Positions 2,873-62,000 are shown, counted from the stretch's first letter. The stretch: DNA of 64,000 bases from Chloroflexota bacterium (GCA_028877205.1 JAPPHY010000007.1:236766-300765), one strand, 5' to 3'. The notes: generated by a model not told the origin, from the letters alone. Numbers and translations: made by a program.

Positions 2873-3868
2873 CTAAGGGCCTGCGTTCTGCGTGCCGTCG
2901 GTGTGAGGGTAGTCGGCGGCGAGGGACTGCATGGCCTCCACCCACGAGGCCTCAATCGTGAAGACCTCAGGGAATGGAAACTCTCCGCGCACTGTCTGCG
3001 CGTAGTAGGCGCTTCCGTCCTCCGTGAGACCGCCCACCAGGTAGCGGGTATGGGATAGGACGTTGAATCCTTCATCGTCCAGCTTCTGCGTCTCCATGAA
3101 AAGGGAGAGCACCGGTTCATCAAGGCCGTAGGGTGTCAGGTCCAGCGTGTCGAATAGCACAAGCTCCTGATCCGGTTTCTCCAGGTGCTCCAGGATGCCG
3201 GGCAGCACCTCGGGGTCGACGAGGGCAGCTTCCTCGTTGTTGAAGCGCCATTCGTCGTTCTCCTTGATGAGGGACAGGAATCCTTCGTCCGTGAACAGCT
3301 CGAACCTGTTGATGGACGCGGCGCTCGCGTTGTAGTACCACTGCGGGTAGGGAGGATCGTCGATGAGCTTGGTGAGGCTCTCCCGCCACCCGGAGAAGAC
3401 AGTGAACACCTGCGGGAAGCCCTCCACCTGCGCGTAGTTGTTCGAGCCGTCGGGCGTGGCGAATCCCAGGAGAACGTTGATGCTGCGCCCGTCCTTCAGG
3501 TCCACCTCCACCACGGTTGGGGGAGCGTCCAGGCCGTAGTCGGCGAGGTTGGGGTCGGTCGGCTGCTCGTCCAGCAGCCTGCGGCTGCGAGGGCCGGTGA
3601 GCAGCAGTGTAATGCCACCCCAGCGGTCCAGACCCACGGGAATGCCCTCCGGATCGCCTATTCGCCAGTTGTTGTCCTCGCCCAAGTGGAAGGAGGCATT
3701 CCCCGCGCTGTCCTCGATGTGGATGCGAGTCAGGTCTGCAATGTCAAGGTTGTAGAACCAGGGCGGCTCCTCCTCTTCCTCCTCGACCTGCCTGAGCTGG
3801 ATGAAGAAGACGTAGCCCGCGACCATTGCCAGGGCAACAACTAGGATGATGGACGTGCGGATGCTCAT
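2873..3868 (-). CDS. DUF4340-like protein with N-terminal membrane anchor
   Basis: It has an N-terminal TM (IILVVALAMVAGYVFFI). It sits directly downstream of a GldG-like gene, as is typical for DUF4340. No catalytic motifs seen. Confidence 0.55.
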   Translation of the reverse strand: MSIRTSIILVVALAMVAGYVFFIQLRQVEEEEEEPPWFYNLDIADLTRIHIEDSAGNASFHLGEDNNWRIGDPEGIPVGLDRWGGITLLLTGPRSRRLLDEQPTDPNLADYGLDAPPTVVEVDLKDGRSINVLLGFATPDGSNNYAQVEGFPQVFTVFSGWRESLTKLIDDPPYPQWYYNASAASINRFELFTDEGFLSLIKENDEWRFNNEEAALVDPEVLPGILEHLEKPDQELVLFDTLDLTPYGLDEPVLSLFMETQKLDDEGFNVLSHTRYLVGGLTEDGSAYYAQTVRGEFPFPEVFTIEASWVEAMQSLAADYPHTDGTQNAGP

Positions 3869-3877
3869 GGGGCCGGA

Positions 3878-5593
3878 CTACCTTCTGCGCCACCAGGCGA
3901 TGCCGGCGAAGAGCATGAGGCCGGTGGGGAGCAGGAACCAGCTGGAGTAGCGTATGAAGTCGAACTGCCTCTGGTCTATGACCAGGAGGCGGAAGGCCTG
4001 CGGCTTGGCGCGGATGGAGATGAGGTCGTACTTCTGCGCCAGCCAGTCCACGGAGTTGAGGAAGAGATCGCTGTTGTTCAGGGCGTAGTAGAACCTGTTT
4101 GACGCGAAGTCCGAGTCCCCGAAGATGATCATGGAAGCCAGGGTCGGATCCTGGCCCGGCAGTAGCTCCGGCGCCTCTTCTCCGACGAATGCAACCAGCT
4201 CTACGGCCAGTGCCAGGGCAAACGGGCCGGGGATGTCGTCTTCATCGGAGCAGTCGGTGGCGTCCCGTTCAACGGTGATGCAGCTGAACAGGGACGAGTG
4301 GGCGAGAGGGATGTGACGGATGTTGATCTCGTCGGGGTTTGGGGGAAGCCCCTCGGGCGCCCTTTCTATGGTGCTCAGAATGCCGGTTGAGTCGGTGAGG
4401 AATGTGTCGTCCAGCTGGCGGGTGATGGGGTGGTCCTGGTTGTAGGCGCTGCGCCGGATGATGGGGCTGCGCGGGTCCGCCACGGTGGAGCTCGCAGTGT
4501 CGACGATGTTGCCCTGTGGCAGCTCGATGCCGAACTTGGCAAAGGTGGTGTTCATCTGCGTGTTGATGGCGTCGTCGATCAGGAAGAGGCCGCGTCCACC
4601 CCTCTTCAGGTACCGCTCCACCATCTCTCGCTCGCCCACGAGTATGGAGTTTCGGGGGCCGGCCATGATGAGGACGGCGGCGTCCTCAGGGATCTCCTCG
4701 ACCTCCCTGAGGTTCAGCGTCCTTACGATGTAGTTGTCGCCGAGAAGGCCGGCGCGTGCGAGGCCGAAACCGTCGCTGTCCTCGGAGGCGTCGTTCGTGT
4801 TGCGTTCGCTGTGGCCGGTGGTGAAGTAGACCACCTTCTGCTGCTCGCCGGTGGAGATGAGGAGGGCGCTGACAAGGTCCTGCTCGGCGAGAGTGAACTC
4901 CTCACCGAAGAACTGGGGTGTGAGCAGGTACGGGTTGCGCTCCGACTCCGTGGCTCGGAACGCAATGGTGGGGTACTCCCGGACGCCGTCGCGGCGCGCC
5001 TGGGCCGGCGTGAGGTCGGGGTCCACGAAGTCGTAGCTGAACCTGCTGTTGCGCCGGTTGAACTCGAAGAAGAAGTCCTCGGCCTGGCGCCGGATCAGCT
5101 CGTGGCGTGCGTCGGTCGGACTGGAGTAGATGGTGGCGTTCACCGGTTCGGCCACGCTCTCCAGCACCAGCTCCGTCTGCGGAGCAAGTGTGAACTGCCT
5201 GGTTGCGGTCACGTCCAGCCGGTAGGAGTTCTCGTATGAGATGAAGCCCAGCAGCACCAGTATGGCGGTGAGTGCGGCCACCATGATCAGGGTGTTTGCG
5301 GCGTAGCGCCCGGCCCGCGCCCTGATGGCGCTCCTCACCGCGCCCAGGTTGGTAAGGGCCGCTGTGAGCAGCATGAGGACGGCCAGGGCCATGAGAAGCT
5401 GACCGGGGCCGCGCAGCTCCGGGATGGTGATGTACACCACGAAGCCGCCTACGAATATCACCGCGCCGGAGAGCGAGAAGATGGGGCCGGCATCAGAGAT
5501 GGCTGTCCACAGCTTCTCGCGGTCGAAACGGCCCTGAGGCTCTTCCCTGGCGCGGCTGCGGCGCTCTCTCCGCCTGTCGCCGCTGGTGCTCAT
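3878..5593 (-). CDS. GldG-like ABC-transporter auxiliary protein
   Basis: The track ORF runs to 5941, but the likely start is ATG 5593 (MSTSGDRRRE...), which overlaps the upstream stop as ATGA. It has N- and C-terminal TM segments around a large extracytoplasmic domain, and sits in an operon with an ABC-2 permease and ATPase. Confidence 0.7.
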   Translation of the reverse strand: MSTSGDRRRERRSRAREEPQGRFDREKLWTAISDAGPIFSLSGAVIFVGGFVVYITIPELRGPGQLLMALAVLMLLTAALTNLGAVRSAIRARAGRYAANTLIMVAALTAILVLLGFISYENSYRLDVTATRQFTLAPQTELVLESVAEPVNATIYSSPTDARHELIRRQAEDFFFEFNRRNSRFSYDFVDPDLTPAQARRDGVREYPTIAFRATESERNPYLLTPQFFGEEFTLAEQDLVSALLISTGEQQKVVYFTTGHSERNTNDASEDSDGFGLARAGLLGDNYIVRTLNLREVEEIPEDAAVLIMAGPRNSILVGEREMVERYLKRGGRGLFLIDDAINTQMNTTFAKFGIELPQGNIVDTASSTVADPRSPIIRRSAYNQDHPITRQLDDTFLTDSTGILSTIERAPEGLPPNPDEINIRHIPLAHSSLFSCITVERDATDCSDEDDIPGPFALALAVELVAFVGEEAPELLPGQDPTLASMIIFGDSDFASNRFYYALNNSDLFLNSVDWLAQKYDLISIRAKPQAFRLLVIDQRQFDFIRYSSWFLLPTGLMLFAGIAWWRRR

Positions 5594-6303
5594 CGCCACC
5601 TCCTGGACTCCAGCGAGCGCACCGTGAGAAACAGCATGAACGTGGTGAAGATTGCGTAGTAGACGATGTCGTGCGTGTCGATTACGCCTCGCGCAAAGCT
5701 CTCCAGGTGGGTTGTGATGGAGAGCTGAAGAACCAGGACCTCGAATATGCCGCCTGCATATGTGGAGGCAAGGTCCAGCACCGTGAGGATGAGGAGGATG
5801 CCCATCGCAAGCACGGCGGCCACTATCTGGTTGCCGGAAAGCGAGGAGGCGAGCAGCCCCACGGATAGCGTCGCCATTCCGAACAGGACAAGGCCAAGGT
5901 ATCCGCTCAGTATCGGGCCGATGTCCGGCGTGGCGAACCACGTCAGCATTATCACCAGGTAAACGGTGGGCACCAGTATGGAGAGCAGGCTGGCCATTGC
6001 GGCCAGGAACTTGCCCATGACAATCTCGAAGTCGCGCACCGGCGCGGTCATGAGAAGCTCCAGGGTGCCGAGCTTCTGCTCCTCCGCCAGCAGCCTCATG
6101 GTGATGATGGGCGAGAGGAGCGTGAAGATGAAGGTACTGGGGATGATGTAGCCGCGGATGGTGGCTTCCGGCAGGGCTCCGCTGATGCTGGTAACGAAGT
6201 AGTATGCGGCCAGGGCGGCGTAGACCGCCATGATGATGTAGGCCATGGGGGAGGCGAAGTAGGTCCGGGTCTCCTTCCAGGCTATCGTGATGGTGTTCTT
6301 CAT
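5590..6303 (-). CDS. ABC-2 type transporter permease (GldF-like)
   Basis: Six hydrophobic segments. Both junctions are ATGA overlaps (5590-5593 and 6300-6303). Confidence 0.75.
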   Translation of the reverse strand: MKNTITIAWKETRTYFASPMAYIIMAVYAALAAYYFVTSISGALPEATIRGYIIPSTFIFTLLSPIITMRLLAEEQKLGTLELLMTAPVRDFEIVMGKFLAAMASLLSILVPTVYLVIMLTWFATPDIGPILSGYLGLVLFGMATLSVGLLASSLSGNQIVAAVLAMGILLILTVLDLASTYAGGIFEVLVLQLSITTHLESFARGVIDTHDIVYYAIFTTFMLFLTVRSLESRRWR

Positions 6304-10780: not shown

Positions 10781-11575
10781 CTAAAGCTCGTCCAAACGCG
10801 ACACAGGCCGGTCGTTTCTGCGGCCCACCATCCGCGTGAATCCGAGAGTCCGCCCTTCGTCGAGGGCAAGCATGTCCGCCTCGTCGGCAGGCTTGCCCAG
10901 CTTCTCCGACCACATCAGGTCCGATTCCATCCAGAGCCGCCATCCGTCCGGCAGCAGGTCGGCATGCTCGACGGTCACCAGCCCGCTTCGCTCCCAGTGA
11001 CGCTTCCACCAGGCCGGGCTGTGGAGGCTGAAGAGCGCCGGCTCCCAGTACTGCGAAAGGTGTTCCGGCGGCTCGTCCGATGGCAGCTCCTCGACCAACC
11101 CTGGCACCACGATGCCCATCTGCCCGCCGGGCCTGACTAGGCGCGCCATGTGACTCTCCAGGTAGAGGTCATCCGTCCCGAAGTAGTGGTATGCGTCCAC
11201 GCTCACCATGGCGTCGAAGAACCCGTCGGCGAACGGCAGGGCGTGGGCTTCGGCGCGGATGGGAAACACCCTGTCGTGGACACCCGCTTCGCAGAACCGT
11301 CGATAGTTCTCGCTTGCGTCTATCCAGAGGTCGACTGCCCACACCTGCAGCCCGTACTCCTTGGCGAGGAATATCGAACTCAGGCCCCTGCCGCAGCCCA
11401 AGTCCAGCACACGCATCCCGGGGCTCAGGCTCATCCGCTCCGCCAGCGACTCCGTCAGCCACAGGGCGTTGGGGCCCATCATGTTGTCCAGGACCCAGTC
11501 GGGATCGTAGGCCGCGGATCGAGGAAACCCGGCGGGCGTGAACGCGTCCCCGCGGCCCTCGCCTGAGCCGCTCAT
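10781..11575 (-). CDS. Class I SAM-dependent methyltransferase
   Basis: SAM-binding motif VLDLGCGRGLSSIFLA followed by FDAMVSVDAYHY. Confidence 0.8.
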   Translation of the reverse strand: MSGSGEGRGDAFTPAGFPRSAAYDPDWVLDNMMGPNALWLTESLAERMSLSPGMRVLDLGCGRGLSSIFLAKEYGLQVWAVDLWIDASENYRRFCEAGVHDRVFPIRAEAHALPFADGFFDAMVSVDAYHYFGTDDLYLESHMARLVRPGGQMGIVVPGLVEELPSDEPPEHLSQYWEPALFSLHSPAWWKRHWERSGLVTVEHADLLPDGWRLWMESDLMWSEKLGKPADEADMLALDEGRTLGFTRMVGRRNDRPVSRLDEL

Positions 11576-11579
11576 CTCA
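11564..11579. repeat. 16-bp perfect direct repeat, left copy (tgagccgctcatctca)
   Basis: Identical to 13889-13904. It contains the first four codons (MSGS) of the methyltransferase on the minus strand. Confidence 0.9.
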
Positions 11580-13888
11580 TCCTCCTACTCCGTTTCCGCC
11601 TTTATCCTTTTGGATAGTCCTATCTCCTCCAGTGTCCAATTGTCGCAGATAAACTGCCGGGAGCTTGTCAAAAACACAGCTACCGCACAATTGCGCAACT
11701 GCTATTTGGTGACACCGGATCTTGATTCTCGCGCCGAAATGAAGGCATTGGTCGCCTCTCGTTGTAGGTCAGTCAAATCTGCCCAGCGTTCACTTTGGAT
11801 TCGCTGAACAGGATTGACCAAGTCTTCAGGGTCAATGAACGCCCTAGCAGCGTCGATGGGGAAATACCAGCCTTTACGCGACGAGAACTTCCCTGCTGAG
11901 CTGGATTGCCGAGCGATCATTCCTTGCAAGAATGCCAAAACGCCATCATCTGACTCAGTAAGGCGCCTTACAAACCTTTGGCATTCCTCGATGGGTGCCC
12001 AGTCCTTCCATCTGTACAGCAGAATCCCAAGATGGGGGGATTGAGCAAGCGACATCTGCTCGGCCTCAGTGCTAATCCTAGTGACAAGCCTATTTCGAAC
12101 CTCGCTCCACTGAGTCTCATCTAGTAGTCGTTTCTCAAATTGGGAATGCTCGCCGTAGAATCGCGTAAAATCAACAACTGCTCCTAAGGAAATCGCTCTT
12201 GTCGCCGCTTTGAGGAGGATGCCCAGTCTCTCGGGTTCCGTCAGACGAGCCAGCAGCCTGTGAACAACGTTCTCAGCCCTTAGCAATTGATTTTCGGACC
12301 AAAGCCCCGTCTGCAACTTGTCACCTGTGTCAAACAAAGCCAAGACCGCGGCCCCAATATGCTCCTCAGGCAGATCGGCCGCAGCATCACCGAGGCGTAC
12401 AAGGAAGCTATCGATCTTGCTGAATCCCACTAGTTCTTCAAGCTCAACTACTAGCCTTGCGTGGTCCCAAGCGTACCCCACAATTGTCTCAAACTCAGTT
12501 TGGGTTACCTCTCCTTCTGGCGGACGTAGATAAAAGTAGCGCGGGAAGTAGTCTATAGTGCAAATCCGTCTCGACTTACGCCACACCTCATGGTACCCGT
12601 CGCTGAAGGTCGAGCCACCATACAAGGTCTCGGTTTCTGGGAAAAGCTGAGAGCAAATCTCTCTCATGGCCGCTCGCAACTCTGACCTGCAAAGCGAATA
12701 AGCTTCGTCCAGTCTGTTTCTATGCTGTTCTCTCGTAGTCAGGCCACCCATGGACCAAGAACCGCCAGCTGCTCCAACCATGATTTCTCGATTGTTCCGG
12801 ATGAACGAGTAGAGCTCTGGTGCAAATGTCCTAACAGCCTCGATACCAGCAAGGTCTACAGGGTTCACTTCGTCTGCAACAATTCCACCACTAACCGCAA
12901 GACCGTTGACGTACCGAACCACATCTCGGGGTGTTCTGATTAACTTATCAAGTCCACCGGCAGTCAAATCAATCCAGCGGATGAGGTTTTCCTCGCTGCC
13001 GCTTGTGAAATGGCCTAGCTTGTCTATGGATTGCGAGAAGAACCGTTGAAGTTTGTTCGGTTCTGCTGGAGGGATGTCAAACCCAACTTGGACGATCTTC
13101 TCCAAGTATTCACTGCCTGATACCCCCTGTTCCCGAGCAAGTACCGACGTTACAACGTCCCGGTCGAATGCTAACACGTATGTCATCCGGTCAAAGTCGG
13201 CGTTGAGGCGGATTAGTCGGAACATAAGCCGCATGGACTCTTGGTCGAGCCTATCAATGTTATCGATGAGTACGAAGATTCGGCGATTCAGCTTGCGGAG
13301 CTCTCTGTTGGTACGCTCCTTGACTTCGATGAGTGATTCTGTTTTCCCTTCCAGAGCCTCAGCGCCTCGCTCAACTGTTTGCGACAGACCTCTGAAAGAA
13401 GAACCTACTACCGGGGAGACTTCCCCGACAGCTAGTATGACAGATAACGCTTGAAGGGACCTTTGTACATTCTTAGCCAACTTAGACCCTGAACGTCCAG
13501 CACCCACCTGAAGCTCGCGGAAGAACATCAAAAGGAGCGAATCCAGGTTTGAGAAGTTCCAGGGATTAAATCTGATTACGATTGGCGCCAGCGCGGAGTC
13601 TCCTGTCTTTTGGGCAATTTCCTTGGCGAGCAGGTTGAGCAACGAAGACTTCCCGGTACCCCACGGAGCGTATAACGCTACGACTAGACAACGGTCGTCT
13701 CTATAGCTTTTAAGTTGCCTTGCTAGCTTTGATGCGAACTCCCCGCGACCAAGATAGTCTTGGTCAACGGCTGAGATAGGTTGGTCAGGGACGAGGGCGG
13801 GTTCAGCCATTTTGTTAGAGACCTTCCATAGCTTTCAACCTGGTTAATTGTGCTCGTATTGGGCCTCACAGCGCAATCGGAATGAGTT
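11580..13888 (-). mobile_element. Putative 2.3-kb insertion (islet) carrying a KAP NTPase, no recombinase
   Basis: It is bracketed by the 16-bp direct repeat. It is A/T-richer than the flanks: line 12061 has 31/60 G+C, line 16201 has 45/60. Deleting it restores an ATGA-coupled gene pair. Confidence 0.5.
11702..13810 (-). CDS. KAP family P-loop NTPase
   Basis: Walker A ALYAPWGTGKSSLLNLL, Walker B-like RIFVLIDNIDRLD, and a long helical C-terminal region typical of KAP NTPases. Confidence 0.85.
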   Translation of the reverse strand: MAEPALVPDQPISAVDQDYLGRGEFASKLARQLKSYRDDRCLVVALYAPWGTGKSSLLNLLAKEIAQKTGDSALAPIVIRFNPWNFSNLDSLLLMFFRELQVGAGRSGSKLAKNVQRSLQALSVILAVGEVSPVVGSSFRGLSQTVERGAEALEGKTESLIEVKERTNRELRKLNRRIFVLIDNIDRLDQESMRLMFRLIRLNADFDRMTYVLAFDRDVVTSVLAREQGVSGSEYLEKIVQVGFDIPPAEPNKLQRFFSQSIDKLGHFTSGSEENLIRWIDLTAGGLDKLIRTPRDVVRYVNGLAVSGGIVADEVNPVDLAGIEAVRTFAPELYSFIRNNREIMVGAAGGSWSMGGLTTREQHRNRLDEAYSLCRSELRAAMREICSQLFPETETLYGGSTFSDGYHEVWRKSRRICTIDYFPRYFYLRPPEGEVTQTEFETIVGYAWDHARLVVELEELVGFSKIDSFLVRLGDAAADLPEEHIGAAVLALFDTGDKLQTGLWSENQLLRAENVVHRLLARLTEPERLGILLKAATRAISLGAVVDFTRFYGEHSQFEKRLLDETQWSEVRNRLVTRISTEAEQMSLAQSPHLGILLYRWKDWAPIEECQRFVRRLTESDDGVLAFLQGMIARQSSSAGKFSSRKGWYFPIDAARAFIDPEDLVNPVQRIQSERWADLTDLQREATNAFISARESRSGVTK

Positions 13889-13904
13889 TGAGCCGCTCAT
13901 CTCA
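13889..13904. repeat. 16-bp perfect direct repeat, right copy
   Basis: tgagccgctcatctca. On the minus strand it reads TGAGATGAGCGGCTCA. That is the stop codon of ORF 13897-14127 overlapping an orphan ATG-AGC-GGC-TCA. Confidence 0.9.
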
Positions 13905-14127
13905 CGTGCAGCTGCCTGACCACTCCGTCCACCACCGTCCCGACCACGTGCCCGCCAACCGCTCCTCGAATGCGATCGTCGTCCCATTCGTCGCCCAGGT
14001 CATAGGCGTAGGTCTTGAAGTCCGACGCCGGCTCCGCCTCGAAGGCGAACACCTGCACCTCCAGCGACAGTTCCTTAGCGGCTGTGTCCATGCTCAGCAG
14101 CATTCCGGATATTCCTTCCCTTGCCAT
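13897..14127 (-). CDS. Hypothetical small acidic protein (76 aa)
   Basis: Internal start ATG 14127 is preceded by aagagggggaccgg. No recognisable motif. Confidence 0.4.
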   Translation of the reverse strand: MAREGISGMLLSMDTAAKELSLEVQVFAFEAEPASDFKTYAYDLGDEWDDDRIRGAVGGHVVGTVVDGVVRQLHVR

Positions 14128-15153: not shown

Positions 15154-15312
15154 GTGAGCGCCATGTCGAAGGCCATCGAGAAGCGTGAGTGGGAGGTGGT
15201 TGCCGTGTGCCTGCTGAGGGGGCTTGTGCAGGCGGCCTCCGCACTGCCGCCGGATGCCGTGCACCACTTGGTGGAGGCGCTGGAAGGAGACGAAGGTGCC
15301 CGGAAGGTCTAG
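15154..15312 (+). CDS. Hypothetical small protein (52 aa), not in ORF track
   Basis: GTG 15154 lies 6 nt after gggaagggagg. The product is VSAMSKAIEKREWEVVAVCLLRGLVQAASALPPDAVHHLVEALEGDEGARKV. Confidence 0.3.
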   Translation: MSAMSKAIEKREWEVVAVCLLRGLVQAASALPPDAVHHLVEALEGDEGARKV

Positions 15313-15916
15313 CGAAACGACGCCGGAGCCCGGCGCCTTCTACGAGGAGGCCCTGTCGCGGGCGGAGCGAGTGCGCCTCTCGCGGGCACGACAGCTCCAG
15401 GGCCTGGACGAGGAGATCGCGCTGCTGAGGGTGCGCCTGGGCAGGCTGGCGGAGCGCGCCCGAGCTTACCTGCTGGACCTGCTGCAGAGCGGCGGCGCCA
15501 GGCTGCACGTGGACTTCATCGACGTGATACACCGCGCCCTGCACGACCTGTCAGAGGCGCCGCGCATCAGCTTCGGAGACAACCCGCGGAACCTGTCCGG
15601 CGTGGCGCTGGAGATGGAGATGGAGATGGGCCCGCTGCTCCAGCGAGTGCGCCGCAAGAGGCTCATCCGCGCCACGGCCTACCGGGAGTGGAACGAGATG
15701 GCGCTGCGGATCCTGGAGAAGCGCACGGGCGTGAAGTACCTGCCGGTGAGGCAGCGAATCGTGTGGGGGCCGCTGCTTCCGCAGGACCGCAGCCGGCTGG
15801 TGAGGGAGCAGCAGACGCTTGTGGAGGCGGGCATCCAAAGCCGGCGCCGCGCCATGGAGAACCTTGGCATCGACGACCCGGATGCGGAGCTGGAGCGGCT
15901 GAGGGCGGAGGGGTGA
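15224..15916 (+). CDS. Hypothetical protein with phage-portal-like C-terminal tail (possible remnant)
   Basis: The C-terminus ...VEAGIQSRRRAMENLGIDDPDAELERLRAEG resembles the conserved tail of SPP1-type portal proteins. The start is uncertain (TTG 15224 or GTG 15296, which overlaps the preceding small ORF). Confidence 0.35.
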   Translation: MCRRPPHCRRMPCTTWWRRWKETKVPGRSSETTPEPGAFYEEALSRAERVRLSRARQLQGLDEEIALLRVRLGRLAERARAYLLDLLQSGGARLHVDFIDVIHRALHDLSEAPRISFGDNPRNLSGVALEMEMEMGPLLQRVRRKRLIRATAYREWNEMALRILEKRTGVKYLPVRQRIVWGPLLPQDRSRLVREQQTLVEAGIQSRRRAMENLGIDDPDAELERLRAEG

Positions 15917-21957: not shown

Positions 21958-22178
21958 CTTTGGCAATGCATACCTCCTCTGCGTGCGACCTTTTCGACGA
22001 CATGATATGCGACTCCGCAGTTTTCGGCAAGCGGCCGGCGTGTGGGGTGCAGGTCGCGCCGCCTGCTTCAGGCTTGCCCGTCGCATTCAACGGAATGTAT
22101 ACTCATCGTCAACCGCGGCGAGAAGCGCGCGGCGCCTCGCACATGCGACGGCGCGCAACGCCGGGCGATAGAAGTCAC

Positions 22179-22255
22179 GGGCGGTTAGCTCAGCTGGTTA
22201 GAGCGCTTGCTTCACACGCAAGAGGTCAGTGGTTCAAGTCCACTACCGCCCACCA
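22179..22255 (+). tRNA. tRNA-Val (anticodon CAC)
   Basis: Hand-folded cloverleaf: GGGCGGT/ACCGCCC acceptor, GCTC/GAGC D stem, CTTGC-TTCACAC-GCAAG anticodon arm, AGTGG-TTCAAGT-CCACT T arm, encoded CCA. Confidence 0.9.
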
Positions 22256-22329
22256 TCAGGCCTGATAAGATCAAGGACCTTCAAATTGCGGCTCGAGCTG
22301 GGGTGTAGCTTGGGCAACGACGAAGGAGA

Positions 22330-24264
22330 ATGTTTATGGACAACGTCATCTCCCTTGAGTATCTCTTCCATAAGCGCCTGTTCAACGTGCCCGACTACCA
22401 GCGGGGCTATGCTTGGGGGCGTGAGCAGATCACAGACTTTCTTGACGACCTGGACATTCTCTCCCCCGGGCGTTTCCACTATACGGGCACTGTCGTATTG
22501 CACCGGCGCGCTGACAAGCCGGAGGTTGAAGACGAGGGCGGGAACACTTACTCCCATTTGGACGTCGTGGACGGACAACAGCGCCTAACGACTATAGTGT
22601 TGCTTCTAGACGAGATTCAAAAGGCACTGCGTGATCCAGATGCCGCGGTGGTGCCACCGCTGGCGCTAGGAATCTCTCGCAACTACATCGCCGCCACCGA
22701 CCCCAACGGCCAGCTCATTCGCAAATTGACGCTCAACAGGGATACAAAGAGCTTTTTCCAGTCTTACATTCTGGACGGAGACCACGCATTTCAGGCATCC
22801 AACGCCGCTCACATGCGACTTAGGGATGCACAGTCCCAAATCCGGAACCACATTTACCAGCACATCAGCGGATTGGATGGTACGGAGAGGATCGATTGGC
22901 TGCGAGATTTTCAGGCTAAGGTCACCCAGCGCTTGGGGTTCACCCAGTTCATTGTTGATGATGAGGCGGAGGTTGGAGTCATATTTGAGGTCATGAACGA
23001 CCGCGGCAAGCTACTCACGGACTTGGAGAAGGTCAAGAACTATCTCCTCTATGTCGGGAGTACCGTGGGCTTCGACAACCCAATCGCCGATGAGGTCAAT
23101 GAGGCTTGGTCGCACATCTTCGGGCAGCTTATGTCGGCGGGACTAACTAGGCCAGACTATGAAGACCAGCTCCTCCGAGTGCACTGGCTCTCACACTACA
23201 ACCCTCAGAAGAAGAACTGGGAAGGGGCCAAGAGCATTCGACAGAGATTCGATCTGCGAGCGTATAGGGACAGAGGTCAGGACTTGGTGAGGGATGTGCT
23301 GGAGTACACGCGTACCCTGCGGGCCTGTGTTGTACCACTCTGTGACGCATATCAGCCGCAGCGGCAAAGCGCATTCGCCGCATTTCACTCTGGGCCTGCC
23401 AAGTCTGGCGCTGTGGCATGGGGCACGCGATTGCGAAGAACGAATACCCTTGCGACCTTCCTTCCGCTTCTTCTTGCAGTTAGAGCCAGGTGGCCTGAAG
23501 ATGCGGCGACGTACCTGGAATTCGTTAGGCTCAGCGAAGTATTCGCATTTCGGGTTTACCGGTTCATCGGTGCCCGGGCCGATTACGGTGAATCGGCTCT
23601 GTATCGCCTAGCCCACAATGTGGCGCGGGGAACTGAGTCCTTTGAAGGAGCCATGGGGCGCTTCAAGCTAGAACTCTACTCGCGATGCTCGGATGAGAAA
23701 TTTCATGTAGCCCTCAGCGAAGGGAACGAGCTCATTCAAGCCGCTTACGGCAAGCGTTACCTGCGCTACTTCCTCTATGAGTATGAGACTCACCTCGCAG
23801 ACACTAAGAAGACTGAGCCGAGGGTGTCGTGGGAGGAAATACAGAGGGAGGATCTCAGAGACACTATCGAACACGTCCTTCCGCAAACGATAGACGGCCA
23901 ACGCTATTGGCGCTCGCGGTTTTGTGATCACGGTGGAGAAGTCCACGAGCGCTACAAGCATGACTTAGGCAATCTTACATTGACGAAGTGGAACCCCCAC
24001 TATGGCAACAAGTCGTTCCCTGAGAAGAGGGGAAGCCTGGGACAAGAGACAGAGTACTGCTATGCAAAGGCGCCGTTCTTCTCGGAACAGGAGTTGGCCG
24101 GTTGGTCGGACTGGGAACCCTCAAGCATCGATCAGAGGCGCGAGAACTTGCTAGCGTGGGCAAAGGAGCGGTGGAGGGTGGACTTCAGTGGGATTACGAA
24201 GCAGTCCCCGGAGGAGGAGCCGCCGGATGACGAGAGCGAGGAAGATCAAGACTCAGGGGACTGA
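22330..24264 (+). CDS. DUF262/DUF1524 protein (GmrSD-like type IV restriction enzyme family)
   Basis: The N-terminus has FNVPDYQRGYAW and DGQQRLTT (DUF262). The C-terminus has IEHVLPQT...DLGNLTLTKWNPHYGNKSF (DUF1524, His-Me finger-like). ATG 22336 has better spacing to gaaggag than 22330. Confidence 0.85.
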   Translation: MFMDNVISLEYLFHKRLFNVPDYQRGYAWGREQITDFLDDLDILSPGRFHYTGTVVLHRRADKPEVEDEGGNTYSHLDVVDGQQRLTTIVLLLDEIQKALRDPDAAVVPPLALGISRNYIAATDPNGQLIRKLTLNRDTKSFFQSYILDGDHAFQASNAAHMRLRDAQSQIRNHIYQHISGLDGTERIDWLRDFQAKVTQRLGFTQFIVDDEAEVGVIFEVMNDRGKLLTDLEKVKNYLLYVGSTVGFDNPIADEVNEAWSHIFGQLMSAGLTRPDYEDQLLRVHWLSHYNPQKKNWEGAKSIRQRFDLRAYRDRGQDLVRDVLEYTRTLRACVVPLCDAYQPQRQSAFAAFHSGPAKSGAVAWGTRLRRTNTLATFLPLLLAVRARWPEDAATYLEFVRLSEVFAFRVYRFIGARADYGESALYRLAHNVARGTESFEGAMGRFKLELYSRCSDEKFHVALSEGNELIQAAYGKRYLRYFLYEYETHLADTKKTEPRVSWEEIQREDLRDTIEHVLPQTIDGQRYWRSRFCDHGGEVHERYKHDLGNLTLTKWNPHYGNKSFPEKRGSLGQETEYCYAKAPFFSEQELAGWSDWEPSSIDQRRENLLAWAKERWRVDFSGITKQSPEEEPPDDESEEDQDSGD

Positions 24265-24440
24265 GCGGAGACTGCTTAGGTGAGGGCGCTATGGGAGAGT
24301 GGATGACCAGCTCTGTGGTAACGACGACCTTAATCACCTCCAGGGCAGCGCGTGCGGCCTCCTTGCGCCGCGACGTATTTTTCGACCGAGCGGCGCCTCC
24401 CACATGCGTTGGCGCGCCACGCCGGGCGCTTGCGGGACGA

Positions 24441-24515
24441 GGAAGGTTAGCTCAACTGGTTAGCGCTTGCTTCACACGCAAGAGGTCAGTGGTTCAAGTC
24501 CACTACCGCCCACCA
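24441..24515 (+). pseudogene. Degenerate tRNA-Val(CAC) copy
   Basis: The 3' 53 nt (24463-24515) are identical to 22203-22255. The 5' acceptor ggaaggt gives two mismatches, and a 2-nt deletion destroys the D stem. Confidence 0.6.
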
Positions 24516-56032: not shown

Positions 56033-59000
56033 GTGAGCGCAGGCAGCTACGGATCGAAGGGCAGGCTGGAAGGCGCGGCGGCAGCGGCGCTGATAGTCGC
56101 CCTTGCCGTGCTTGCCGCGGTCATGCTCTCCGCGCCGCTGGCCTACGCGCAGGACCCCGTAATCGAGCCTACCGAGGCGCAAGCAGCGCCAACACCCGAA
56201 TCCACCACTGAGCCTCCGCCCGAATCGACCCAGACTACAACGCCCGAACCTACCCAGCCCCCAACCCCCGAGCCTGTGCCGGAACCCACGGCGGAGCCAA
56301 CACCGGAGCCCACGCCCGAACCGACGCCTGAACCTACGGCAGAGCCTACTGCCGAACCGACGCCTGAGCCCACGGCGGAGCCTACTGTCGAGCCGACGCC
56401 TGAGCCCACGACGGAGCCTACTGCCGAACCCACTCCTGAGCCAGCAGTCAGCGTACCGGCAGCGCCCACGGGGCTGCAGGCCAACGCCTCACCCGGCTCG
56501 CTGAGCATATCGGTGGGCTGGGGTGACGTCACCGGAGCGAGCCATTACCGGGTCCGCTGGCGAGTGGCCGGACCGGGCAACAGCCTGAACACGGGTGTGG
56601 AGACGCAGTCCTCCAACGCCACCATCACCGTCAGTAGCTACGGCGAATGGGTGGTGCGGGTAGAGGCGTGCAACAACGCGGGCTGCGGGTCGCACATCGC
56701 ATTGCGGTTTGCGGTCGATCCGGCTCCTGAACCAACGCCGGAGAACAACCTGGCGCCGGTCTTCAACCTCGCGATCAGCGGCCTGTCCTTCCAGGAAGGC
56801 GAGGACGACGGCGAGACGACACTGCCGGAGGCCGACGGCGGCAACGGCGCTCTGACATACAGCGTGACGCCGGCCCTGCCCGAGGGACTGACATTCGACC
56901 CTGAGACCCGCGTCCTTGGCGGCACGCCGTCTGAGGCCGGCGAGTTCTCCATGACCTACACCGCCACCGACGAGGACGGCGACGAAGCCTCGTTCACGTT
57001 CACCATCACCGTGGACCCTGGCCTTGTGACAGCCCAGTCAAATTCGCTGCCCGCGCCCGTCAACGTCACCGTCTCCCGCAAGCGGTCCGACGTGCAGATG
57101 AACCCGGCCATTGACGTGAGCTGGGCCGCTCCGAGCCACCACCGGACAAACCTCGGATACGCGCTGCGGGTAATGAAAATCGGCTCAGACCAGACAGCAA
57201 CCCAGGTAGCAATCCATGGTTTTGGCGAGAACACGCTCAACACGACCCTGACAGACCTGGACGCCGGCGCCGTATACCGAGTCGACGTGCGGGTGAAGTG
57301 GGCGGTTGACGGATTCAGCAGCTGGGTTAGCTCGTCACACATCACCGCCAACCGGCCGCCCACTACAACCAACACATACGTCGCTGAAGCTAGTCTTCCG
57401 TGGGGCCAGACCGGGTACAGTGAAACCGCGCTGCCGACCTATTTCAGCGACGCGGAAGGCGACACGCTGACCTGGTCGGCCTCTTCTGCGTATCCCGGCG
57501 TGATCGCTGCCGGGGTGGACGGGTCCGGATCCACCGCCAGGCTATGGGTCAGGCCGGTCAACCCCGGCTCGGCATTGGTTACCTACGGAGCGCACGACGG
57601 ATACGGCGGGTATGCCTCTCGCACCGTGAAAATGACCGGCACCGCGAACGAGGTCCGGAGCATCCCTGAGAACTCTCCCAGCGGCACCAATGTGGGCGCG
57701 CCTCTCGCGGGCGTCCCCTACAACGACGAGACGCTGACCTACTTCTGGACCTTCAACGGCGACCCTTGGCGGCAATTCTCCTTCAACACTTCCACCGGCC
57801 AGATCATCGTGTCCGTAAACGTCATCCCGTCGAAACTGGACTACGAGACCGGCCCGAACAGCTACACCGGCAAGGTGGAGTACACCGTGCAGGGCCAGAA
57901 AGCGGTGATCAACTACACCATCAACATCACTGACGTCACTCCCGGCAAGCCCGCCGCTCCGACGGTGACGCGTAAGCAGTCAAGCGTGGCGACGACGCAC
58001 CCAGCGCTGGACGTGACGTGGACGGCGCCCGATGCCAACGGCACCACCATCAACAGCTACGAGGCCCAGTACCGGGTCAAGGTGGCTGCGGGCGAGACGG
58101 AAAACGCCTGGACGGCGTACACCGGCACGCTAGGGGCGACCGCGACGAGCCTCAGCTTGACAGGTCTGCAGTCCGGTGCCACCTACGAGGTCCAGGTGCG
58201 CGCCGTCAGCAACGACGAGGGCAAAGGCCCCTGGTCGGACTCCGGGGAGGGCCAGGCCAACACGGTGCCGAGCACCACCGCGTTATCCATCGCTGCGACG
58301 ACGATCCCGTGGGGGGAGACCAGAACCTACGATCTCGCCGCTTCCGGGAGTGAGTATTTCACGGACGCGGACGGCGACACCCTGACCTACTCGGCCTCCG
58401 CCACGTACCCTTGCATCGTCGGCGTCAGCTTCTCGGGTTCCGTGCTGTCCATCACCGCCCTCAACCCCGACGCGTCCACCATAGTCTACGGGGTGACCGA
58501 TCCCTACGGCGGTTACACTTCTCGCGCCGTGACCATCACCGGCTCGGGGAACGTCACACGGGAGGTGCCGGAGAACTCCGCCGCTGGAACGAACGTGGGC
58601 GCGCCGATAACCTCTGCCCCCTGCGGCGATGAGTATATTTCCTACGGGTTCGATGGCGAGGCATCGACCTCCGGGAAGTTCGTCATCGACCATGAGACCG
58701 GCCAGATCAGCGTGGCGGAAGGCGCTACGCTGGACCACGAGACCAAGAGCTCCTACACAGGCCGGGTGCATTGGGTGGTGCACGGGGACCAGTTCCCCGC
58801 CGCCAACGTCACGATCAACGTGACCGACGTGGGGGCGGGCAAGCCCGGTACGCCGACGGTGACGCGGACAACGTTCAGTGAGCCGACAGCCCCTGCCCTG
58901 GACGTGACGTGGACGGCCGCGACTGCCAACGGGGGCGCGACCATCTCGGGCTACCAGGCGCAGTACCGCAAGAAGGCAGAGGAACCTGTGGCGTGGACGT

Positions 59001-62000
59001 CCTACAGCGGCACGCTGGGCGCTACGGCGACGACCCTGAACCTGGCGAACCTGGAAGCGGGAGCGACCTACGAGGTGCAGGTGCGGGGAGTTAGCAGCGA
59101 GGAGGGTGCCGGGCCCTGGTCGGACACCGGAGAGGGCACGGCCAACACGCCGCCGGCTGCCACCAGTACGCCCTTCAACGGCGGTACGTTCCCGGTCGGC
59201 ACCGTCGCCACCTACTCTGAGACGGGCCAGGGAGCATTGGGGGTGTTCTTCCAGGACGCCGACAGCGACACGCTGACCTATGCGGCCTCCGCACAGCACC
59301 CCGCCCTGCTGGGTGTCAGCCTGTCCGGCGCAGCCGGGAGCGCCCAGCTGCGAGTAACCCTGCTCAATCAGGGCTCATCCCAAGTCATCTTTACGGCCAG
59401 CGACCTCTACGGCGGGTCCGTAACCCGCACCACGACCATCGGCATCACGGCGAAAACGAGCCGCAGCATCGCTGAGAACTCCCCCGCGGGCACGGCGGTA
59501 GGGGGGCCGGTGACAGGCATTCCGTACAACGGCGAGGCGCTGACCTACTCGCTGGAGGGCAAGGCGAAGGATTCCGGGAAATTCGTCATCAACTCCGCCA
59601 GCGGCCAGATCAGCGTGGCGCAGGGCGCTACGCTGGATTACGAGACTGACGATGACGACAGGGAGATCGAGTACTGGCAAGGCGAGGTGTTCAACAAGTT
59701 CTACAGGGGAGAGGTGCACTACACGGTAGACGGCCACGCGGCGGTCATCAGCGTGCTCCTCATCTTGACGGACGTGGACTCCCCCAAGCCCGCGGCGCCG
59801 ACGGTGGCCCGCACGCAGTTCAGCGAGCCGACCAACCCGGCGCTGGACGTGACATGGACAGCGCCCTCCGCCGGCGGCATGACCATCACCGGCTACAAGG
59901 CCCAGTACCGCAAGAAGGTCGCGCAGGGCGAAACCCCCAACTCGTGGACTGCTTACAGTAGCACGCTGGGCGCTACGGCGACCACCATCAACCTCCCGGA
60001 CCTGGAGGCGGGGGCCACCTACGAGGCGCAGGTGCGGACGGTGACCAGTGAAGAGGGCGATGGGTCTTGGTCGGATATCGGGGAGGGGCAGGCCAACACG
60101 CCGCCGAACACCAACATCTGGTTCATGACTGATTTCTCTTTCTGGTGGGGTTCCTCTTCTGTACCTCACGGCGTGTCAGGATATTTTGAGGACGCGGACG
60201 GCGACACACTGACATACTCGGCCTCATCAGAGTACCCCGGCGTGATCCAGGTCTGGATGACTGACCCTGACGTCCTGACGATGTTAGCGGTCAACCCGAG
60301 CTCATCAACGGTGACGTACGGAGCCTCTGACGGGTACGGCGGATATATCTCGCGTACCTTCAAGGCCACCGGCACAGGGAACGAGACTAGGAGTGTGGCG
60401 GAGAACTCTCCTGCGGGCACAGCGGTAGGTCGGACGGTGCATGGAACGCCATACAACGACGAAACACTGACCCACACCTGGGAGGGTGAGGCGAAGGACT
60501 CAGGGTTGTTCGAATTCAACTCCGCGACTGGGCAGATCAGTGTCGCGCAGGGCGCAACGCTGGACTACGAGACCAAGAGCTCCTACACCGGCAAAGTGAA
60601 ATGGACCGTGCAGGGTCAGGAAGCCGTTGTGAACCTGACCATCAACGTGACGGACGTGGAGGCCGTCATGTCCGCTGCGCCGACGCTCGCCCGCACGCAG
60701 TTCAGCGAGCCGTCGAACCCGGCCCTGGACGTATCGTGGACGGCGGCGACCGCCAACGGACTGACCATCACCGGCTACGAGGCGCAGTACCGCAAGAAGG
60801 CTGCAGATGGCGAGCAAGCTGCTGGATGGACGGCCTACAGCGGCACTTTGTCGGCGACGGCGACGACCCTCAACCTGCCGGACCTGGAGGCAGGCGCCAC
60901 CTACGAGGCGCAGGTGCGGGCGGTGACCAGCGAGGAGGCCGAGGGGCCGTGGTCGGATATCGGGGAGGGCACAGCCAACACGCCGCCGGCCTGGACGCGA
61001 CTTTACTACCCCGACGCGACTTACAGGTACAGGGTCGTCTGGACAATCGTCAGCGGCGGGACGCTCGCTGCCCACTTCTCAGACGCCGATGGCGACACGC
61101 TCACCTATTCGGCGACCCCGGCGCACCCGGCCCTGGCCAATGCATGGGTAGCAGGGAACGATCTGACGATAGAAGCACGGAACGCCGGTGCGACCAGCCT
61201 TACATACAGGGCGCGTGACTCCTACGGCGGAGTCAGCAGCGATGTACGTCATGGATTCACGGTCACCGCAAGCGAGACCCGCACCGTTCCTGAGAACGCC
61301 GCGGCCAACACGATGGTCGGTGACCGGGTGCAGGGGGTTCCCTACACCGGGGACACGCTGTCGCTGGGCTACACGCTTACGGGGGAGCTGGCGACGTCCG
61401 GGAACTTCCTCATCAAGCCGCACGGAAGGATCCGGGTGAAGACTGGGGCCGTGCTTGACTACGAGACCAAGAGCTCCTACACCGGCAAGGTGGAGTACAC
61501 CGTCGGGGGCATTGCCTCCGCCATTGACGTCACCATCAACCTGATTGACATCGAGGCGGGCAAGCCCGGCACGCCGGCGGTGACGCGCACACAGTTCAGC
61601 GAGCAGTCGGCCCCGGCGCTGGACGTGACGTGGACTGCGGAGGCCGCTAACGGACTGACCATTACTGGCTACGAGGCGCAGTACCGCGAGAAGGCCGCCG
61701 ACGGTGAAGAGGCCGCAGCGTGGACGGCCTACAGCGGCACGCTGTCGGCGACGGCGACGACCTTCAACCTGCCGAACCTGGAGTCTGGCGCGACCTACGA
61801 GTTCCAGGTGCGGGCAGTGACCAGCGAAGAGGGCGAGGGGCCGTGGTCGGACATTGGGGAGGGCACGGCCAACCGGCCGCCAAATAAGACCAACAGGCAC
61901 CTCGTCGACAGCACGTACCCGCAGTTCACCAGCGGCTACGCTGACCTGTTCAACTCTACGCCACTGTTCTTCGAAGACGCCGATGGAGACACGCTGACCG

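What the first reader, a model, noticed from the sequence alone, without database searches (positions are those of the whole stretch)
11564..13904. Lone KAP NTPase gene sits on a 2.3-kb insertion bracketed by a perfect 16-bp direct repeat that splits a translationally coupled gene pair
The sequence tgagccgctcatctca occurs at 11564-11579 and 13889-13904. These are exactly the borders of the A/T-richer stretch (line 12061 has 31/60 G+C, line 16201 has 45/60).

On the minus strand the repeat reads TGAGATGAGCGGCTCA. At the right copy, TGA is the stop of ORF 13897-14127, and the overlapping ATG-AGC-GGC-TCA encodes Met-Ser-Gly-Ser. At the left copy, the same ATG-AGC-GGC-TCA is the real start of the methyltransferase 10781-11575 (MSGSGEG...). 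Deleting one repeat plus the 2,309 nt between them would recreate an ATGA-overlapping gene pair.

That is the signature of a precise insertion with a 16-bp duplication. The insert carries only the KAP P-loop NTPase. It has no recombinase and no terminal inverted repeats that I can see. It supplies a new AGGAGG in front of the displaced methyltransferase start. KAP-type NTPases recur in defence-island contexts, so a mobile single-gene KAP cassette is worth a look.
Basis: seen in the sequence. Interest (0 to 1): 0.6.

Follow-up and report, generated by a model that had tools for sequence, protein, structure and literature searches.

The report
Lone defence gene inserted into operon
One species of sponge-dwelling Dehalococcoidia picked up a foreign PifA-like KAP NTPase (a probable anti-phage gene), which landed exactly on the stop/start overlap of a two-gene operon and copied 16 bp of the target so both neighbours survived; this looks like a clean one-off gene capture, not a new kind of mobile element.

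Summary
A perfect 16-bp direct repeat (11564-11579 and 13889-13904) brackets a 2,309-bp segment with 51% GC against 65% in the flanks. The segment holds one gene, a 702-aa KAP P-loop NTPase that matches the PADLOC PifA model over its full length (E=4e-91).

Two sister species (L007, L008) have the small ORF and the methyltransferase contiguous, with an ATGA or GTGA overlap. Deleting one repeat plus the insert in silico gives a gap-free alignment to them. So this is a real, lineage-specific insertion with a 16-bp target duplication.

The "mobile cassette" reading is not supported. Eight homologous KAP loci (64-76% aa) sit in defence islands, but none has flanking repeats or shared ends. The insert has no terminal inverted repeats, no recombinase, no tRNA-like site and no attC-like structure.

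Both junctions fall where the nearest KAP relatives carry sequences resembling the target (GACATGAGGGGACTCG upstream, CAGATGAGG downstream). That favours short-homology-guided illegitimate recombination or template switching, with selection keeping both flanking genes.

The locus is a hypervariable island beside a prophage remnant, and the same junction is joined to a different methyltransferase in L009 and L076. Interest is modest.

The parts
13889..13904 (.). Direct-repeat copy 1 (upstream copy in gene orientation). On the minus strand it reads TGAGATGAGCGGCTCA. It contains the small-ORF stop (13899-13897) and an orphaned ATG (13900-13898).
11564..11579 (.). Direct-repeat copy 2 (downstream copy). 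It contains the working ATG of the methyltransferase (11575-11573).
11580..13888 (-). 2,309-bp foreign insert with about 51% GC. It is absent from sister species L007 and L008.
11702..13810 (-). KAP P-loop NTPase of 702 aa, PifA-like. Walker A is APWGTGKSS. Walker B is RIFVLIDNID (aa 177-186; FVLIDNID from aa 179). A borderline hydrophobic insert lies at aa 118-139, and the C-terminal half is helical.
13811..13848 (-). Degenerate remnant of the roughly 14 N-terminal codons seen in the closest KAP subgroup (MNNQIESDRRSLTEI...). The ancestral ATG is now ATT at 13848-13846, there is a 1-nt deletion, and a new ATG lies at 13810.
13844..13900 (-). Left-over 18-codon ORF (MSGSNSFRLRCEAQYEHN*) started by the orphaned methyltransferase start codon in repeat copy 1.
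   Evidence: sequence
11580..11701 (-). 3' flank of the insert. The first ~100 nt after the KAP stop are conserved with L072/L158/L159. A weak terminator-like hairpin lies at 11699-11682. AGGAGG at 11586-11581 now serves the displaced methyltransferase.
13897..14127 (-). Small ORF of 76 aa with no family match. It is the upstream partner of the split pair.
10781..11575 (-). Class I SAM-dependent methyltransferase of 264 aa. It is the downstream partner of the split pair.

Best explanation
The inserted gene is a horizontally acquired single-gene defence candidate: a PifA-like KAP P-loop NTPase with an N-terminal NTPase sensor/switch and a helical C-terminal region of about 360 aa and unknown function. 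It was captured once, in the ancestor of one species of sponge-associated Dehalococcoidia.

The DNA came from a pool of about 52%-GC KAP genes that circulate in defence islands of other sponge-metagenome genomes. It integrated without any recombinase of its own, exactly at the 4-bp stop/start overlap of a small-ORF/methyltransferase operon.

The most likely route is short-homology-guided illegitimate recombination, either two template switches at a stalled fork or the equivalent joining of a DNA fragment or circle:
1. The left junction formed where the donor's region about 50 nt upstream of KAP resembled the target (GAnATGAGnGG-CTC).
2. The right junction formed where the donor carried AGATGAG about 125 nt downstream of KAP.
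3. Because both joins used the same 16-nt stretch of the recipient, that stretch was duplicated.

The duplication leaves the small ORF's stop and the methyltransferase's start intact. The insert's purine-rich end provides an SD sequence. The insert points the same way as the operon, so KAP is probably transcribed with it.

Shown: the insertion, the duplication, the foreign origin, the gene family, and the defence-island context of relatives. Inferred: the microhomology mechanism, co-transcription, and anti-phage activity.
For: Insertion and its polarity:
- Empty sites occur in L007 and L008, and in-silico excision aligns gap-free to them.
- The insert is present in all 10 conspecific contigs, which differ by at most 1 SNP.
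- KAP GC3 is 0.54, against 0.82-0.91 for core genes.

Identity:
- Pfam KAP_NTPase E=6e-48.
- PADLOC PifA E=4e-91, covering protein residues 6-680 of 702 and model positions 5-708 of 720.
- Walker motifs and a hydrophobic insert are present.
- Full-length relatives occur on plasmids of haloarchaea, cyanobacteria, Vibrio and Bacillus.

Defence context of homologues: type IIG and type I R-M, Schlafen/AlbA, PIN, CBASS SMODS/Cap17, TIR, HNH and IS elements. KAP NTPase plus unknown C-terminal region proteins were shown experimentally to block phages (PMC13552941).

No element machinery: no terminal inverted repeats, no recombinase among the called genes within about 10 kb on either side of KAP, and no tRNA-like site.

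Short homology at the junctions:
- Window GAGATGAGCGG-CTCAAACTCATTC versus L072 GACATGAGGGGACTCGAACCCTTTC, at the same offset from the KAP start. 13 of 2000 shuffles reach the score over 63x65 nt, and 0 of 2000 over the matched segment.
- Donor-type loci L072, L158 and L159 carry CAGATGAGG in the column where the window's downstream repeat lies.
- The window's insert ends inside the downstream region that L072/L158 and L159 share to about +350; L160 matches only to +57, plus a 74-nt patch near +334.

The same island shows other short-repeat rearrangements: an 8-bp TGAGCGGC repeat at the MT2 indel and a 10-bp overlap at a 2.98-kb deletion.
Against: - The true donor (above 90% nt identity) is not in the databases searched. 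Junction microhomology is therefore inferred from proxies with 73-76% aa and about 77-80% nt identity.
- The last ~22 nt of the insert (…CGGAAACGGAGTAGGAGGA) do not match those proxies.
- The left-junction similarity was noticed post hoc, and the right one is only a 7-mer.
- A perfect 16-bp duplication is also what a staggered-cut integrase or a 16-bp att core would give.
- Two other recombinase-less, repeat-bracketed defence insertions were seen: GmrSD between tRNA-Val copies in this window, and L137. They hint that something more systematic could exist.
- Anti-phage activity and transcription are untested.
- Direct BLAST similarity to the enterobacterial F-type PifA-like protein covers only aa 9-339.
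Confidence: 0.55

Rival explanations
1. The 2.3-kb unit is a non-autonomous cassette moved as a circle by a site-specific (tyrosine or serine) recombinase encoded elsewhere. The 16-mer, which contains the palindrome TGAGC-G-GCTCA, would be the att core shared by attL and attR.
For: - A perfect 16-bp direct repeat with an internal 11-bp palindrome.
- The same junction carries other cargo in L009 and L076.
- Core-like sequences flank KAP at equivalent offsets in L072 and L158.
- Two other integrase-less, repeat-bracketed defence insertions were seen: GmrSD between tRNA-Val copies and L137.
Against: - No second copy of the 16-mer or of the insert ends in 1.5 Mb of related loci.
- No significant flanking repeats in any of eight homologous KAP loci.
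- Boundaries of the conserved KAP unit differ between loci, and the window's insert ends inside the region that L072/L158 and L159 share.
- The MT2 gene in L009 and L076 natively starts MS(G/V/A)..., so its 8-bp 'repeat' is simply two similar gene starts.
- No recombinase among the called genes within about 10 kb on either side of KAP, or in the ORFs tested out to about 29.3 kb.
Confidence: 0.2
2. The 16 bp is a target-site duplication made by a transposase- or casposase-like integrase acting in trans on a non-autonomous element. A 16-nt staggered cut would be filled in.
For: The duplication is exact and abuts the insert on both sides. Casposons make TSDs of 14-15 bp (own knowledge).
Against: - No terminal inverted repeats at the insert ends.
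- No other copies of the ends.
- No transposase or Cas1 in the neighbourhood.
- 16 bp is outside the range of common bacterial IS families (own knowledge).
- Homologous KAP loci lack TSDs.
Confidence: 0.07
3. KAP is ancestral at this position, and L007 and L008 lost it by precise deletion between the 16-bp repeats.
For: Short-repeat deletions do occur in this island: a 10-bp overlap at the 2.98-kb portal/terminase deletion and 8 bp at the MT2 indel.
Against: - KAP GC3 of 0.54, against 0.82-0.91 for core genes, shows it has not ameliorated.
- KAP is absent from all four other species-level relatives of the island (L007, L008, L009, L076).
- The repeat itself would still need an origin.
- The 16-mer includes the lineage-specific fourth codon TCA, identical in both copies.
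Confidence: 0.05
4. Assembly chimera or mis-join in a MAG.
For: The source is a metagenome assembly.
Against: The structure is identical in independent ENA, NCBI (two assemblies) and Logan (three runs) contigs.
Confidence: 0.01

Closest known systems
PifA of the F plasmid / PADLOC 'PifA' family (KAP P-loop NTPase, single-gene phage T7 exclusion)
   Same: It is a single gene of about 700 aa with a KAP NTPase domain at the N-terminus. It matches the PADLOC PifA profile over its full length (E=4e-91), and relatives are carried on plasmids and in defence islands.
   Different: tblastn against enterobacterial F-type plasmids aligns only aa 9-339, at 26.6% identity, so the C-terminal half may differ from canonical PifA. 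The host is a Dehalococcoidia sponge symbiont. No phage phenotype is known.
KAP NTPase plus region-of-unknown-function defence proteins (EF_KAP and relatives; PMC13552941)
   Same: The architecture is a KAP NTPase followed by more than 300 aa with no known domain. It acts as a stand-alone gene and lies in variable or defence regions.
   Different: Those proteins were found next to small serine recombinases and have clear transmembrane helices. Here there is no adjacent recombinase, and only a borderline hydrophobic segment at aa 118-139.
Phage 'morons' and other single-gene insertions between adjacent genes
   Same: One extra gene of deviant composition sits precisely between two neighbouring genes, beside a prophage remnant (portal/terminase).
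   Different: There is no evidence that the small ORF and the methyltransferase are phage genes. No convincing promoter or terminator of its own was found. A 16-bp duplication is not a defining moron feature.
Integrase-borne genomic islands / CIME-type att-flanked remnants
   Same: A direct repeat of typical att-core length (16 bp) flanks foreign DNA.
   Different: There is no integrase, no tRNA/tmRNA target, the size is only 2.3 kb, and no second occurrence of the core was found.
Integron gene cassettes
   Same: A single, apparently promoterless ORF is inserted in the direction of a host transcription unit.
   Different: There is no attC-like imperfect palindrome or GTTRRRY core at the 3' end (fold z-score -0.5), no IntI or attI nearby, and boundaries are a 16-bp duplication rather than split core sites.
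Microhomology-mediated illegitimate recombination (HFIR, SPDIR, MMBIR/template switching; own knowledge of de Vries & Wackernagel 2002, Harms et al. 2016, Hastings et al. 2009)
   Same: The junctions lie in short imperfect homologies. The target is duplicated by an arbitrary length, no element-encoded functions are needed, and the event is unique.
   Different: These processes are mostly documented experimentally for short patches or with a long homologous anchor. Here a whole 2.3-kb gene went in with no detectable long anchor.

Membership tests
KAP family P-loop NTPase (Pfam PF07693) | Profile match above the gathering threshold | tested here: met
   164 bits against a cut-off of 20, E=6e-48, aa 23-307
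KAP family P-loop NTPase (Pfam PF07693) | Walker A and Walker B motifs with a hydrophobic/transmembrane insert between them | tested here: inconclusive
   Walker A is APWGTGKSS and Walker B is RIFVLIDNID (aa 177-186). The best hydrophobic segment, aa 118-139, has a Kyte-Doolittle score of 1.6, only borderline for a transmembrane helix. The structure model has low confidence there.
PifA (PADLOC PDLC02361) | Full-length match to the PifA profile | tested here: met
   E=4.1e-91, protein residues 6-680, profile positions 5-708 of 720
PifA (F plasmid protein) | Homology to the enterobacterial plasmid protein over the C-terminal half | tested here: not met
   tblastn hits on E. coli, Klebsiella and Salmonella plasmids cover only aa 9-339, at 26-27% identity
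PifA (F plasmid protein) | Exclusion of T7-like phage triggered by gp1.2/gp10 | not testable with these tools
   Needs expression and phage challenge
Insertion sequence / non-autonomous transposon (MITE-like) | Terminal inverted repeats at the ends of the insert | tested here: not met
   The best inverted pair is internal and 76% complementary. Nothing lies at 11580 or 13888.
Insertion sequence / non-autonomous transposon (MITE-like) | Multiple copies with the same termini | tested here: not met
   No other occurrence of the repeat plus 10 nt of insert end in the window or in 1.5 Mb of fetched loci
Integrase-mediated genomic island | Integrase gene in or next to the island | tested here: not met
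   The insert holds only KAP. Called genes within about 10 kb on either side carry no recombinase family, nor do the ORFs tested out to about 29.3 kb.
Integrase-mediated genomic island | att direct repeats, often the 3' end of a tRNA or tmRNA | tested here: inconclusive
   A 16-bp direct repeat is present but is not tRNA-derived: ARAGORN and Rfam are negative
Integron gene cassette | attC site (imperfect palindrome with R''/R' cores) at the 3' end, and IntI/attI nearby | tested here: not met
   The 3' flank folds no better than shuffles (z = -0.52). No GTTRRRY boundaries appear in the sequence. No integrase in the neighbourhood.
Casposon | Cas1 casposase, PolB and terminal inverted repeats, with a 14-15 bp TSD | tested here: not met
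   Only the TSD-like length is similar. There are no inverted repeats and no other genes in the insert.

The most novel reading that the evidence does not exclude
Sponge-symbiont genomes may have a general, so far undescribed route that drops single defence genes or mini-islands at gene boundaries with duplication of the target. It could be a trans-acting recombinase or a recombinase-independent circle-integration process.

Three cases seen here would be products of one mechanism:
- the KAP insertion, with a 16-bp repeat;
- the lone GmrSD gene between two tRNA-Val copies 8 kb away, with a repeat of about 132 bp of which 54 bp are identical;
- the AAA_21/DUF4276/KAP trio in L137, with a 44-bp repeat inside a host gene's 3' end.

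None of the three carries an integrase.
Probability: 0.12. Interest if true: 0.65.

Novelty: new member of a known kind. Interest (0 to 1): 0.33.

Why it matters
This is a base-pair-resolved example of how a defence gene enters a chromosome without any mobile-element machinery and is wired at once into an existing operon. The target duplication preserves an overlapping stop/start, and the insert end supplies a ribosome-binding site.

It adds a Chloroflexota sponge-symbiont member to the KAP/PifA-type single-gene defence candidates. It also marks the island between the thiolase gene and rpsT in this clade as a natural experiment in operon-compatible gene shuffling.

If the repeat-bracketed GmrSD and L137 cases prove to share a mechanism, the finding would point to an integrase-less class of defence cassettes. 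On present evidence it is an instructive but ordinary horizontal-transfer event.

Tried and rejected
- **tRNA-derived att site.** L072's upstream motif contains GGGGACTCGAACCC, which looks like a T-arm. ARAGORN and Rfam find nothing in the window region or in L072. Rejected.
- **Upstream motif as the end of the IS5-like element next to KAP in L072.** That IS is bounded by a perfect 12-bp inverted repeat at 5075-5086 and 5902-5913, so it ends 37 nt before the motif. Rejected.
- **Conserved KAP cassette with repeats in other genomes.** The longest flanking exact repeats in eight loci are 8-10 bp, and up/down flank alignments are not above shuffles. Rejected.
- **Conserved upstream ORF shared with L072.** The nucleotide similarity has a 1-nt indel that changes the frame, so the peptide resemblance is coincidental (my reading).
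- **attC-like or other structure in the 3' flank.** z = -0.52. Rejected.
- **Promoter or terminator scan.** Counts are at chance. There is only a weak hairpin after the KAP stop.
- **Third, 2-mismatch copy of the repeat at 33761.** It is just another gene start.
- **JGI metagenome scan with a KAP alignment.** It returned only relatives of 45% identity or less, which are useless for boundaries. The viral-contig scan found no close relative.
- **Structure prediction of KAP.** Confidence was low (pLDDT 60, pTM 0.42). Foldseek against PDB gave no hit with E<=0.001, only weak ORC/Apaf-1/RdrA-like ATPase and helical-repeat matches. A sequence search of PDB was empty.
- **Generic scan for direct repeats of 15 bp or more at 0.3-6 kb spacing in all loci.** It was dominated by repetitive proteins. 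Only the KAP, tRNA-Val/GmrSD and L137 cases combine a repeat with a drop in GC.
- **Riboswitch in the conserved leader upstream of many methyltransferase homologues.** No Rfam hit.
Full report
**Observation.** The 16-mer TGAGCCGCTCATCTCA occurs exactly twice in the window, at 11564-11579 and 13889-13904. Shuffles give 0.04 expected matches even with two mismatches. The identity stops abruptly on both sides.

The repeats coincide with a compositional step. GC is 0.50-0.54 in 300-nt windows inside and 0.62-0.68 outside. GC3 of the enclosed gene is 0.54, against 0.82-0.91 for neighbouring core genes.

On the minus strand the 76-aa ORF 13897-14127 ends GTG AGA TGA, and the ATG overlapping that stop is orphaned. 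The same ATG in the other copy (11575) starts the 264-aa class I SAM methyltransferase 10781-11575. AGGAGG sits 5 nt upstream of that start, inside the insert.

The identical structure is present in ENA, NCBI (two assemblies) and Logan (three runs) contigs. These differ from the window by at most one SNP in the insert and one in the flank. The structure is therefore real and fixed in the sampled population of this sponge-associated Dehalococcoidia species.

**Empty sites.** A scan of species-representative genomes with the methyltransferase returned 64 loci. Three of them also carry the small ORF.

- In L007 and L008 the small ORF stop and the methyltransferase start overlap directly: GTGAGATGAGCGGCATGG and GTAAGGTGAGCGGCACAGG.
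- Removing one repeat plus 2,309 nt from the window in silico gives a gap-free alignment to both, and restores an ATGA-coupled pair.
- KAP is absent from all four other species-level versions of this island: L007, L008, L009 and L076.

Together with the unameliorated composition, this makes insertion in the window's lineage far more likely than repeated precise loss.

**What the cargo is.** The only gene in the insert (11702-13810, minus strand, 702 aa) matches Pfam KAP_NTPase (E=6e-48). It also matches the PADLOC PifA profile end to end (E=4e-91, residues 6-680, profile positions 5-708 of 720).

It has Walker A (APWGTGKSS), Walker B (RIFVLIDNID) and a borderline hydrophobic segment between them.

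Full-length relatives at 26-31% identity are annotated as KAP-family NTPases on plasmids of haloarchaea, cyanobacteria, Vibrio, Bacillus and rhizobia. Enterobacterial F-type plasmids match only the NTPase half, aa 9-339. So the gene is PifA-like by profile, but its C-terminal half is not shown to be that of canonical PifA.

No solved structure is detectable by sequence. An AlphaFold model from 26 homologues was poor (pLDDT 60), apart from an all-helical C-terminal region. Foldseek gave no significant hit.

[quoted passage not shown] That is the best functional analogy. Activity here is inferred, not shown.

**Where the gene comes from.** The closest proteins in 5.8 billion are only 64-76% identical, with about 77-80% nt identity in the fetched loci. 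All come from metagenome assemblies.

Eight of their loci were fetched. KAP lies among type IIG and type I restriction-modification genes, Schlafen/AlbA, PIN, CBASS (SMODS/Cap17), TIR, HNH, RelA/SpoT-like genes and IS elements. The gene is about 52% GC in every host.

No close relative was found in viral contigs, and JGI metagenomes gave only distant ones.

The window's copy belongs to the subgroup whose N-terminus reads MNNQIESDRRSLTEI. Those 14 codons persist upstream of the present ATG as a degenerate remnant, with ATG changed to ATT and a 1-nt deletion. Other family members also start at the shorter position, so the gene is probably intact.

**Is it a mobile cassette?** The evidence says no.

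- There are no terminal inverted repeats, no recombinase in the insert or within about 10 kb, no tRNA-like sequence, and no unusual structure in the 3' flank.
- None of the homologous loci has flanking direct repeats above background: 8-10 bp exact, and flank alignments no better than shuffles.
- The insert ends are found nowhere else in 1.5 Mb of related sequence.
- The extent of flanking conservation differs between loci. L072/L158 and L159 share about 350 nt downstream of KAP, while L160 matches only to +57. The window's insert stops 122 nt into that region.

**How it probably got in.** Both junctions lie in short similarities between the donor-type flanks and the target.

- *Upstream.* The window reads GAGATGAGCGG-CTCAAACTCATTC. 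L072 and L158, at the same distance from the KAP start, read GACATGAGGGGACTCGAACCCTTTC. Over unbiased 63x65-nt windows 13 of 2000 shuffles reach the score, and 0 of 2000 do over the matched segment. The 30 nt nearer the gene are not similar.
- *Downstream.* L072, L158 and L159 carry CAGATGAGGCAGGG exactly where the window's second repeat copy (GAGATGAGCGG) lies.

A nascent strand, or an incoming fragment or circle, that paired first with the upstream site and then returned through the downstream AGATGAG would insert KAP and duplicate the 14-16 nt of target between the two joins.

Selection would then favour such a product. Because the flanking genes overlap, only an insertion that duplicates the overlap leaves both intact. 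The co-directional orientation and the purine-rich insert end keep the methyltransferase translatable.

This mechanism is an inference from 73-76%-identical proxies. The real donor is unsampled, and the last ~22 nt of the insert are unexplained.

**Context.** The segment between a thiolase gene and rpsT is a hypervariable island next to a prophage remnant.

- L008, L009 and L076 keep an intact portal and large terminase. The window lost 2.98 kb there between sequences with a 10-bp overlap.
- The small ORF is coupled to the methyltransferase in L007 and L008.
- In L009 and L076 it is coupled to a different 265-aa methyltransferase (MT2), followed in L076 by DinB, a HAD fragment, the methyltransferase and a cupin.
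- MT2 homologues natively begin MS(G/V/A)(S/T)xTDD. The 8-bp TGAGCGGC 'repeat' in L009 is therefore two similar gene starts, and the L008/L009 difference is best read as a short-repeat deletion or insertion of the same illegitimate kind.
- HAD and a MerT-like gene also change position between relatives.

Rearrangement junctions cluster at SD/start-codon sequences. Those are the commonest short homologies between genes, and they are also the only places where operon function survives.

**Rivals.**

- *Trans-acting site-specific recombinase using the 16-mer as an att core.* It fits the perfect repeat and its internal palindrome. It predicts further copies or circles that were not found. I give it 0.2.
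- *Transposase or casposase-type TSD.* It lacks inverted repeats and copies. I give it 0.07.
- *Ancestral presence with precise loss.* Composition and distribution contradict it. I give it 0.05.
- *Assembly artefact.* Independent assemblies exclude it.

**Verdict.** The 'mobile KAP cassette' reading is not.

The finding is a new member of a known kind, a PifA-like KAP NTPase defence candidate, acquired by an ordinary though unusually well-resolved illegitimate integration.

The most novel reading still open (probability about 0.12) is that this case, the GmrSD gene between duplicated tRNA-Val copies 8 kb away and the repeat-bracketed defence trio in L137 are products of one integrase-less insertion mechanism.

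Noticed in passing
window 22124-24515 (tRNA-Val 22179-22255 and 24441-24515; GmrSD 22330-24264, + strand): A second lone defence gene is bracketed by a direct repeat. A GmrSD type IV restriction gene (Pfam GmrSD_N 8e-33, GmrSD_C 9e-18) with GC 0.56 against 0.63 in the flanks sits between two copies of tRNA-Val(CAC) plus about 55 nt of upstream sequence. The repeat is about 132 bp, and its last 54 nt are identical. The second tRNA copy has two acceptor-stem mismatches and is probably a pseudogene. No integrase was found among the ORFs tested out to about 29.3 kb.
   Followed up: partly
L137 491-534 and 4646-4689 (metagenome contig ORJL011206801.1): A 44-bp direct repeat with 1 mismatch brackets a 4.1-kb, lower-GC segment (0.62 against 0.72). 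The segment holds an AAA_21 ATPase, a DUF4276 protein and a KAP NTPase homologue (33% identity). The first repeat copy lies in the 3' end of a luciferase-like monooxygenase gene. There is no recombinase inside.
   Followed up: partly
window 10781-11575 and loci L007-L066: The methyltransferase is 75-91% identical at the protein level across MAGs of different phyla that live in sponges: Dehalococcoidia, Acidimicrobiales/Ca. Poriferisodalis and Ca. Synechococcus spongiarum. That implies recent inter-phylum transfer. Many copies share a conserved upstream leader (…CACCCTCGTGCTAGCGTGTAG…) with no Rfam match.
   Followed up: partly
window ~15224-15916 (+); L008 2263-5367; L009 and L076 equivalents: This is a prophage remnant. 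Relatives keep an intact portal (434 aa) and large terminase (486 aa). The window carries a 2.98-kb deletion that fuses a portal fragment to an upstream ORF, with a 10-bp overlap at the breakpoint.
   Followed up: yes
L009 7121-7918; L076 5001-5798: In two sister species the small 76-aa ORF is translationally coupled (GTGA) to a different class I methyltransferase (MT2, 265 aa) instead. L076 additionally has DinB, a HAD fragment and a cupin in the array. HAD and the MerT-like gene occupy different positions in the window, L009 and L076.
   Followed up: yes
L158 3471-4950 versus L072 5945-5954: An IS with a UPF0236-family transposase is inserted about 50 nt upstream of the KAP homologue in L158. 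The breakpoint has a ~10-bp overlap (CCAAGACATG) and abuts the motif that resembles the window's repeat.
   Followed up: no
L074 2412-3593 / 3590-5746: In one homologous locus the KAP gene overlaps (ATGA) an upstream HNH_5 nuclease gene. This may be a two-gene variant of the system.
   Followed up: no
window ~57400-64000: There is a long array of diverged repeats of about 890 bp, consistent with a very large repetitive protein-coding gene.
   Followed up: no
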